DNA of 64,000 bases from a virus (taxonomy: Duplodnaviria > Heunggongvirae > Uroviricota > Caudoviricetes), in the IMG/VR virus record IMGVR_UViG_3300029641_000003. One strand, written 5' to 3'. The number at the start of each line of letters is the position of its first letter. Positions within the stretch are counted from its first letter, which is position 1. Shown here one piece after another: positions 10,798 through 11,292 of this stretch. Below the pieces are notes generated by a model. The model did not search any database, was not told the origin of the DNA, and saw nothing but the letters and a program-made list of their open reading frames with translations. Made by a program: the position numbers and the translations under genes.

Positions 10798-11292
10798 TTA
10801 AAACTTTGCGTACTGAAGCGGTGTACGCTTGATTTCAACGCGGCCTTCCGATGTGCTACCAAAGCCACCAGCACCTCGCTCTGTTTCATCGAGTTCATCA
10901 ACTTCTACCAGCGATACCGGTTCAACACGCTCAAAAATGCCTTGCATGACCGCCATTCCTGGCTTAAGGCAAACGCCTTCACCACCGGGATCTGTAATCA
11001 GTTTTGCCATGATTTCACCGCGATAATCGGAGTCGATAATTCCTACGCAGTTAGCCAGGCGCGTATGCTTTTTGCAGCCCAATCCGGAACGAGGATAAAG
11101 TTTCAGACACCAGCCAGGAGGGATCGCCATAGCGAGGCCGGTATGCACCCACCAGCTTGAGGAAATAGCGCCGTTGCTATCGATACCCGGCGTTATTTCA
11201 ACAGCAACAAAATCCATCGCCGCCGATCCGGCGGTGGCGTAAACGGGGAGTTTTGCCGCCGGATGAAGGCGTTTCACTTTCACGTTAATCAT
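10798..11292 (-). CDS. dut: dUTPase-like protein (trimeric dUTPase fold)
   Basis: PRSG, GIIDSDYRGEI and C-terminal RGAGGFGSTS motifs. Confidence 0.8.
   Translation of the reverse strand: MINVKVKRLHPAAKLPVYATAGSAAMDFVAVEITPGIDSNGAISSSWWVHTGLAMAIPPGWCLKLYPRSGLGCKKHTRLANCVGIIDSDYRGEIMAKLITDPGGEGVCLKPGMAVMQGIFERVEPVSLVEVDELDETERGAGGFGSTSEGRVEIKRTPLQYAKF

What the first reader, a model, noticed from the sequence alone, without database searches (positions are those of the whole stretch)
10798..11292. dUTPase homolog embedded in the cargo operon
All characteristic trimeric dUTPase motifs are present. Phage dUTPases can moonlight as regulators (SaPI derepression), so this may be a signalling component rather than only nucleotide hygiene.
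Basis: partly seen in the sequence, partly recalled or inferred. Interest (0 to 1): 0.4.

Follow-up and report, generated by a model that had tools for sequence, protein, structure and literature searches.

The report
Phage-plasmid dUTPase gene, already annotated
This is the known dut gene (a dUTP-destroying enzyme that keeps uracil out of DNA) of a D6-like phage-plasmid, sitting in the conserved Dre recombinase operon; it is ordinary apart from one lineage-specific change in a conserved motif.

Summary
The ORF at 10798-11292 (minus strand, 164 aa) is a real homotrimeric-type dUTPase. It passes Pfam and both NCBIfam dut cut-offs, matches solved dUTPases (E 5e-23), and its predicted model superposes on them. 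It evolves under strong purifying selection (dN/dS 0.05-0.13). The window is a D6-like P1-family phage-plasmid. This gene was annotated "dut" in phage D6 in 2004 and carries that name in over 100 RefSeq plasmids. It is not in a cargo operon. It is the fourth gene of a conserved dre(cre-homolog)-orf2-orf3-dut module next to an exact rox site; the variable genes lie downstream, including a Tad2-like anti-Thoeris homolog. "All motifs present" needs one correction: motif IV keeps its Gln but has Ala in place of the conserved Arg. That change is shared by the whole phage-plasmid Dut clade (Escherichia to Pantoea). The active ASFV dUTPase also lacks this Arg, so activity is probably retained. The motif VI insert required by the staphylococcal signalling dUTPases is absent, and nothing found here supports moonlighting. 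Some natural variants have lost motif V, so the enzyme looks dispensable. Verdict: already known, low interest.

The parts
10798..11292 (-). dut: 164-aa homotrimeric-type dUTPase (motif IV variant GMAVMQ; 15-aa unconstrained C-terminal tail)
11289..11777 (-). orf3: 162-aa clade-restricted protein predicted as two tandem winged-helix domains; its stop overlaps the dut start (ATGA)
11774..12118 (-). orf2: 114-aa protein of unknown function (PHROG 1968); 4-bp overlap with orf3
12191..13219 (-). dre: Cre-homologous tyrosine recombinase, first gene of the operon
13372..13403 (-). rox site, an exact match to the D6 rox (32 bp; 14-bp inverted arms, 4-bp spacer)
13363..13390 (-). sigma-70-like promoter candidate (TTGGCA-16-TATAAT, 11/12); its -35 hexamer lies across the rox spacer; consensus match only
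10121..10783 (-). 220-aa protein with a C-terminal Tad2-like (DUF2829) domain at residues 132-220; variable accessory gene directly downstream of dut
9308..10114 (-). isaA-like 268-aa protein of unknown function
8221..9321 (-). 366-aa protein of unknown function (PHROG 5902), last gene of the co-directional run
8192..8207 (-). terminator-like hairpin just after the last gene of the run (pattern match; such sites occur at chance frequency in this region)

Best explanation
The gene encodes a catalytically competent homotrimeric dUTPase (EC 3.6.1.23), the dut gene of a D6-like P1-family phage-plasmid. It is co-transcribed and translationally coupled with dre, orf2 and orf3, probably from a promoter at the rox site. 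The trimer hydrolyses dUTP to dUMP and PPi. This lowers the dUTP/dTTP ratio, so that less uracil enters the element's DNA during plasmid or lytic replication, and it supplies dUMP for thymidylate synthesis. It supplements the host Dut and is therefore useful but dispensable. What is shown: family membership, fold, retention of the catalytic residues, purifying selection and operon position. What is inferred: enzymatic activity, trimer formation, time of expression and physiological benefit.
For: The protein exceeds the HMM cut-offs for PF00692, NF001862 and TIGR00576. It matches PHROG 135 dUTPase at 1.7e-61. It is 35-43% identical to solved bacterial dUTPases, including E. coli Dut. The AF2 model has pLDDT 88.9, and the top Foldseek hits in PDB are all dUTPases with target-normalised TM-scores of about 0.8-0.9. 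Asp27, Arg68, Ser69, Asn81, Asp87, Asp89, Tyr90, Gln117 and Arg139 are invariant, and Phe144 is nearly invariant, across 70 homologs. dN/dS is 0.05-0.13 in all but one of the pairwise comparisons among six clade members, up to dS>2; the exception, 0.52, is a nearly identical pair. The gene is present at full length in 127 PLSDB plasmids and in 103 of 5426 complete E. coli genomes, always on a plasmid of about 90 kb. The dre-orf2-orf3-dut order is conserved across genera. The missing motif IV Arg is tolerated elsewhere. ASFV E165R has Cys at that position and is an active dUTPase (PMC7948977). [quoted passage not shown]
Against: The signature Arg of motif IV is replaced: by Ala in the Escherichia/Salmonella/Klebsiella/Raoultella group and by Val in Pantoea. 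The preceding acidic residue is replaced by Met, or by Thr in a few Pantoea sequences. Of about 105 non-clade homologs, 103 keep the Arg. The effect on kcat and Km has not been measured. The host already has an essential Dut, so the selective benefit is not obvious. Variants without a functional motif V persist (P0004, P0005, P0014, P0016, P0027).
Confidence: 0.85

Rival explanations
1. Moonlighting regulator or signalling protein. The Dut would bind a partner, for example the tandem winged-helix orf3 product or a host or satellite repressor, in a dUTP-dependent manner, as staphylococcal phage Duts bind Stl.
For: Motif IV forms part of the Stl-binding surface in 80alpha and phi11 Duts (PMC5593958), and it is specifically altered in this clade. 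The gene is translationally coupled to a clade-restricted tandem winged-helix protein. The clade carries variable C-terminal appendages beyond motif V.
Against: There is no motif VI-type insertion between motifs III and IV. The C-terminal tail is unconstrained (pN>=pS), absent in Klebsiella and Raoultella, and predicted disordered. The co-occurrence of orf3 and dut is entirely confounded by shared ancestry, since there are only 12 orf3 clusters, all in this clade. No interaction could be tested.
Confidence: 0.05
2. Catalytically weakened or dead pseudo-enzyme that is retained for a structural role, because the motif IV Arg (and the preceding acidic residue) has been lost.
For: The Arg is kept in 103 of about 105 non-clade homologs and is lost in the whole clade. 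Motif-V-less variants persist.
Against: All residues shown by mutagenesis to be essential or strongly contributing in other dUTPases are invariant here and under purifying selection: motif II Arg, motif III Asp and Tyr, motif IV Gln, motif V Arg (PMC7948977). ASFV dUTPase is active without this Arg.
Confidence: 0.07
3. Counter-defence enzyme. As part of an accessory or anti-defence gene run with Tad2, the dUTPase would protect the element from uracil-based restriction, that is, Ung attack after the dUTP pool is raised by host dCTP/dCMP-deaminase defences. This reading uses the same chemistry as the best explanation.
For: The gene lies directly upstream of a Tad2 homolog (6e-20 to PDB 9eib and 8v3e). 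Two independent in-frame Dut-Tad2 fusions exist in the clade. T5 is reported to use its dUTPase to limit dUMP in its DNA (PMC10511110).
Against: Overexpressing Dut did not affect AvcID deaminase defence, and Ung was not required for it (PMC10511110). The Tad2-like gene is absent from some relatives that keep dut (S. Typhi pK91; Raoultella). Dut-Tad2 fusions occur only inside this clade, where the two genes are 14 nt apart, so adjacency is enough to explain them. There are no PADLOC hits.
Confidence: 0.08

Closest known systems
Dut of Escherichia phage D6 (AY753669 'probable dUTPase', 2004; MF356679 orf115) and RefSeq 'dut' of D6-like plasmids such as pRHBSTW-00605_3
   Same: It is the same gene in the same place. 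The protein is 89% identical to D6 Dut, and the DNA is 98-99% identical to several plasmid copies. The dre-orf2-orf3-dut order and the rox site are identical.
   Different: Only allelic differences. The window's downstream Tad2-like gene encodes 220 aa, against 146 aa for D6 orf114, and the window has an extra 366-aa gene.
E. coli chromosomal Dut and other bacterial homotrimeric dUTPases (PDB 1dup, 7n56, 8y1q)
   Same: The fold, motifs I, II, III and V, the motif IV Gln and the spacing between motifs III and IV are the same. It is 43% identical to E. coli Dut.
   Different: The motif IV Arg is Ala and the preceding Asp/Glu is Met. There is an 8-aa hairpin insertion ending in WW between motifs I and II, and a 15-aa C-terminal tail after motif V.
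Staphylococcal phage trimeric Duts (80alpha, phi11) that derepress SaPIbov1 by binding Stl
   Same: Both are phage-encoded trimeric-type dUTPases with conserved motifs I-V.
   Different: The extra motif VI insertion, which PMC5593958 states is required for Stl binding, is absent. No Stl-like partner is known or was found here.
ASFV E165R dUTPase (PDB 6lis)
   Same: It is a trimeric dUTPase that also lacks the motif IV Arg (KECLVQ) and is nevertheless active.
   Different: ASFV is a 'non-classical' two-subunit active-site enzyme. The residues after motif IV in the window protein (FERV) resemble the classical, arm-swapping type described in PMC7948977. This reading was not checked structurally.

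Membership tests
Homotrimeric dUTPase (PF00692 / TIGR00576 / NF001862) | Profile score above curated cut-offs | tested here: met
   PF00692 49.9 bits (cut-off 22); NF001862 117 (103); TIGR00576 116.2 (102.55)
Homotrimeric dUTPase | Motif I Asp (AGxD) | tested here: met
   GSAAMD27F; Asp27 is invariant in 70 homologs
Homotrimeric dUTPase | Motif II Arg-Ser (PRSG) | tested here: met
   YPR68S69GLG is identical to E. coli PRSGLG
Homotrimeric dUTPase | Motif III catalytic Asp and sugar-discriminating Tyr (IDxDYRG) | tested here: met
   GIID87SD89Y90RG, invariant
Homotrimeric dUTPase | Motif IV Gln | tested here: met
   Gln117 is invariant
Homotrimeric dUTPase | Motif IV Arg ((D/E)RIAQ) | tested here: not met
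   GMA114VMQ. The position is Ala or Val in the whole phage-plasmid clade and Arg in 103 of about 105 other homologs. The residue is not universal in active members: ASFV has Cys. Its role is described as possibly non-essential (PMC3905902).
Homotrimeric dUTPase | Motif V P-loop-like arm with Arg finger and Phe lid (RGxxGFGSTG) | tested here: met
   ER139GAGGF144GSTS
Homotrimeric dUTPase | Jelly-roll beta-barrel subunit fold | tested here: met
   The AF2 model has pLDDT 88.9. The Foldseek top 50 PDB hits are all dUTPases, E down to 5e-13, TMt about 0.8-0.9.
Homotrimeric dUTPase | Trimer assembly and dUTP-specific hydrolysis | not testable with these tools
   Only a monomer model was available; this needs an enzyme assay and SEC or crystallography.
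Signalling (Stl-binding) staphylococcal phage Duts | Extra motif VI insertion between motifs III and IV | tested here: not met
   The alignment to E. coli Dut has at most a one-residue length difference between motifs III and IV, so there is no motif VI-sized insertion. The requirement is stated in PMC5593958.
Signalling (Stl-binding) staphylococcal phage Duts | Cognate repressor partner whose binding is blocked by dUTP | not testable with these tools
   No Stl homolog was sought in hosts. The tandem winged-helix orf3 is a purely speculative candidate.

The most novel reading that the evidence does not exclude
The Duts of P1/D6-type phage-plasmids (Escherichia to Pantoea) form a distinct clade. 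It is defined by an Arg-less, hydrophobic motif IV (G-M/T-A/V-x-x-Q), a WW-containing hairpin insertion, and variable C-terminal appendages: a 15-aa tail, a 45-70-aa acidic low-complexity tail, or a fused Tad2 domain. Such an enzyme could have been remodelled for a second job. One possibility is dUTP-gated binding to the co-translated tandem winged-helix orf3 product. Another is acting as a trimeric scaffold for appended anti-defence domains. Either would come in addition to, or instead of, bulk dUTP hydrolysis.
Probability: 0.06. Interest if true: 0.55.

Novelty: already known. Interest (0 to 1): 0.12.

Why it matters
It matters little. The gene confirms that the window is a D6-like phage-plasmid and that the dUTPase belongs to its conserved Dre module, not to transferable cargo. 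The only new detail is a clade-wide loss of the motif IV arginine. That would interest dUTPase enzymologists as a natural test of the residue's role, which PMC3905902 says still needs mutagenesis. If the enzyme proved to have a partner-binding role, it would extend Dut moonlighting from staphylococcal phages to enterobacterial phage-plasmids, but nothing found here points that way.

Tried and rejected
1. Staph-type motif VI: looked for and absent.
2. Defence or anti-defence profile hits for the six operon proteins downstream of dre in PADLOC: none.
3. Neighbours of a 51%-identical phage Dut (L006) have the same sizes (160 and 114 aa) as orf3 and orf2, but they are unrelated; this is coincidence.
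4. The P1 C1-operator consensus was searched in the whole window: 0 matches with up to 3 mismatches. Repressor control of the operon therefore could not be assessed, and D6 C1 may recognise a different site.
5. The C-terminal tail as a functional motif was rejected: pN>=pS, it is absent in Klebsiella and Raoultella, and pLDDT is about 45-52.
6. Dut-Tad2 fusion as Rosetta-stone evidence: only two fusion clusters exist, both inside this clade where the genes are adjacent, so the evidence is weak.
7. Sequence searches of orf2 and orf3 against PDB and Pfam gave nothing significant. The fold search of orf3 gave only generic tandem winged-helix similarity (ScpB, PadR/MarR; TM below 0.5).
8. The internal terminator-like hairpin at 11218-11233 inside dut was ignored, because the count of such sites equals the shuffle expectation.
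9. The Sauer & McDermott 2004 paper and the Vertessy & Toth review could not be retrieved.
10. A dre-like lineage at about 79% identity (pR18.1595_113k) has IS26 and an integron in place of the downstream genes, so dut is not universal next to dre-like recombinases.

Full report
**What is there**

The interval 10798-11292 holds a single minus-strand ORF of 164 aa. Its ATG overlaps the TGA of the upstream gene (ATGA), and a GGAGAG lies at 11303-11308. The product scores above every curated threshold for the trimeric dUTPase family:
- Pfam PF00692, 49.9 bits against a cut-off of 22.
- NCBIfam NF001862 (equivalog), 117 against 103, and TIGR00576, 116.2 against 102.55.
- PHROG 135 'dUTPase', 1.7e-61.

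It matches 57 distinct solved dUTPase sequences, the best being Rickettsia 7n56 at 5e-23 and E. coli 1dud at 5e-20. An AlphaFold2 model built on 70 homologs has mean pLDDT 88.9. Its 50 best Foldseek matches in PDB are all dUTPases, with target-normalised TM-scores of about 0.8-0.9.

**Motifs**

I aligned the protein with E. coli Dut (sequence recalled from memory), D6 Dut and about 190 database homologs.
- Motif I is GSAAMD27F.
- Motif II is PR68S69G.
- Motif III is GIID87SD89Y90RG.
- Motif V is R139GAGGF144GST.
- These four motifs are intact, and their key residues are invariant or nearly so across 70 homologs.
- Motif IV reads GMAVMQ. Gln117 is invariant, but the Arg of the (D/E)RIAQ signature is Ala114 and the preceding acidic residue is Met.

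This is not a private mutation. Every intact close relative has M-A-V-(M/I/V)-Q; these are P0001-P0012, down to 65% identity, from Escherichia, Salmonella, Klebsiella and Raoultella. A deeper Pantoea branch from elements of about 90 kb has (M/T)-V-(V/I)-A-Q. By contrast, 103 of about 105 homologs outside the clade have Arg.

The consequence is probably small:
[quoted passage not shown] It is mostly disordered and 'might not be essential' (PMC3905902).
- ASFV E165R has Cys at this position; I confirmed the sequence against PDB 6lis. It is a kinetically characterised active dUTPase (PMC7948977).

**Other peculiarities**

There is an 8-residue hairpin insertion ending in WW between motifs I and II. 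Its length varies within the clade; the Raoultella copy is 17 aa longer. There is also a 15-aa tail after motif V. That tail is absent in Klebsiella and Raoultella. It shows pN>=pS in two of the four comparisons, whereas the gene as a whole has dN/dS 0.05-0.13. It is predicted disordered, with pLDDT about 45-52. I treat it as an unconstrained appendage. The spacing between motifs III and IV matches E. coli Dut to within one residue, so there is no equivalent of the staphylococcal motif VI.

**Where it sits**

The window is a D6-like, P1-family phage-plasmid. In the 4.5 kb around the gene it is 98.5% identical to E. marmotae plasmid pRHBSTW-00605_3 and 82% identical to Escherichia phage D6. The related records carry tail, baseplate, head, portal, pacase, C1 repressor, phd/doc and Dar-type genes.

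The gene is the one annotated 'dut, probable dUTPase' in the 2004 D6 immC record AY753669. It is orf115 of the D6 genome and is named 'dut' by PGAP in the plasmids. On the minus strand the run of genes is:
- dre (12191-13219)
- orf2 (11774-12118)
- orf3 (11289-11777)
- dut (10798-11292)
- the Tad2-like gene (10121-10783)
- an isaA-like gene (9308-10114)
- a 366-aa ORF (8221-9321)

The junctions are 4-bp overlaps or gaps of at most 14 nt, apart from a 72-nt gap between dre and orf2 and a 14-bp overlap at the last junction. An exact copy of the D6 rox site lies at 13372-13403. A near-consensus promoter candidate (TTGGCA-16-TATAAT) has its -35 hexamer across the rox spacer. This is a pattern match only.

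**Backbone, not cargo**

The order dre-orf2-orf3-dut is conserved in E. coli, S. Typhi, Raoultella, Klebsiella and an unnamed 90-kb contig. What follows dut differs:
- A Tad2-like gene in the window.
- None in S. Typhi pK91.
- An unrelated 247-aa gene followed by arsenic-resistance cargo in Raoultella.

The dut sequence occurs at full length in 127 PLSDB plasmids. These are almost all non-mobilizable replicons of about 88-97 kb. It also occurs in 103 of 5426 complete E. coli genomes, always as a single copy on a plasmid and never on a chromosome. About 145 PLSDB records have a dre at 80% identity or more, against 128 with dut, so most but not all of them keep dut. A lineage with dre at 79% identity has IS26 and an integron in its place. 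Among sequenced phages only D6 has a close copy; the next best are about 50% identical.

**Function**

The simplest reading is the textbook one. The protein is a trimeric dUTPase that hydrolyses dUTP to dUMP and PPi. That limits uracil incorporation into the element's DNA and feeds thymidylate synthesis. Strong purifying selection across the clade argues that the protein is used.

Several natural alleles have nevertheless lost motif V, which is needed for catalysis (PMC7948977):
- Frameshifted P0005, P0016 and P0027, and truncated P0014.
- The 241-aa P0004, in which Dut residues 1-143 are joined in frame at a GAGG microhomology to the Tad2-like C-domain of the next gene. It has 15 member sequences and was found on 6 contigs.

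The activity is therefore dispensable for persistence of the element, as expected in hosts that have their own essential Dut.

**The moonlighting idea**

The staphylococcal precedent requires motif VI together with motifs IV and V (PMC5593958). Motif VI is absent here.

The one suggestive feature is that motif IV is remodelled and the gene is translationally coupled to orf3. I found orf3 to be restricted to this clade, with only 12 clusters. It is predicted, at pLDDT 81.7, to consist of two tandem winged-helix domains. Its structural similarity to ScpB and to PadR/MarR proteins is only generic. Because orf3 and dut share the same phylogenetic distribution, their co-occurrence carries no independent weight.

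A second suggestive feature is the existence of two independent Dut-Tad2 fusions: P0004, and a 304-aa K. michiganensis protein with a complete Dut including motif V. A dedicated search found no such fusion outside this clade, where the two genes are 14 nt apart. Adjacency therefore explains them.

A counter-defence role against deaminase systems also lacks support. Dut overexpression did not alter AvcID defence, and Ung was not required for it (PMC10511110).

**Verdict**

This is a correctly recognised but already annotated phage-plasmid dUTPase. It lies in a backbone operon, not a cargo operon. It carries a clade-wide Arg-to-Ala/Val variant in motif IV, which I did not find described in the few papers I consulted. 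No evidence for a signalling role was found. Interest is low.

Noticed in passing
window 10121-10783 (-): The gene directly downstream of dut encodes a 220-aa protein. Its C-terminal domain (residues 132-220) is a clear Tad2 (anti-Thoeris sponge) / AcrIIA7 homolog (PF11195 1.6e-22; PDB 9eib ModTad2 and 8v3e Tad2 at about 6e-20). It is fused to an N-terminal domain of about 130 aa of unknown function (PHROG 11049). A 2025 preprint (10.1101/2025.09.12.675607) already reports Tad2 in 93% of D6-like phage-plasmids.
   Followed up: partly
L012:4001-4726 and L013:2067-2792 (E. coli D6-like contigs); L015:4434-5348 (Klebsiella michiganensis): There are two independent in-frame Dut-Tad2-like fusion proteins. 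One is 241 aa and lacks the motif V Phe-lid/P-loop; it arose by deletion at a GAGG microhomology. The other is 304 aa, with a complete Dut, a linker and a Tad2-like domain. No such fusion was found outside this phage-plasmid clade.
   Followed up: yes
window 11289-11777 (-): orf3 is restricted to this phage-plasmid clade (12 protein clusters). It is predicted to be a tandem winged-helix protein with an invariant C-terminal HIKRR-Y-T motif. It is a possible DNA-binding or scaffold protein of unknown role, translationally coupled to dut.
   Followed up: partly
window 13363-13403 (-): There is an exact D6 rox site. A near-consensus sigma-70 promoter candidate has its -35 hexamer (TTGGCA) spanning the rox spacer, so Dre binding at rox could in principle autoregulate the dre-dut operon.
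   Followed up: partly
P0134-P0161 (Pantoea contigs of about 90 kb): Pantoea phage-plasmid Duts (193-218 aa) share the Arg-less motif IV and the WW insertion. They carry a 45-70-aa acidic Thr/Pro/Ala/Glu-rich low-complexity C-terminal tail that ends in a short basic K/T/S-rich stretch.
   Followed up: no
window 8221-9321 (-): A 366-aa ORF (PHROG 5902, with a weak hit to a terminase-large-subunit PHROG at 5e-7) closes the operon here. It is absent from phage D6, which has pdcA at the corresponding place.
   Followed up: no
L014 (S. London pR18.1595_113k) 1-4500: In a related element with a 79%-identical dre, the region downstream of dre is replaced by IS26 and a class 1 integron (aac(6')-Ib-cr, arr-3, dfrA27). 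This indicates that the position is an insertion hot spot for resistance cargo.
   Followed up: no
L004 22543-23922 (pRHBSTW-00605_3): The closest plasmid relative carries a TnpB-family RNA-guided endonuclease gene next to a HicA toxin gene, between head and portal genes. I did not check whether the window has the same insertion.
   Followed up: no
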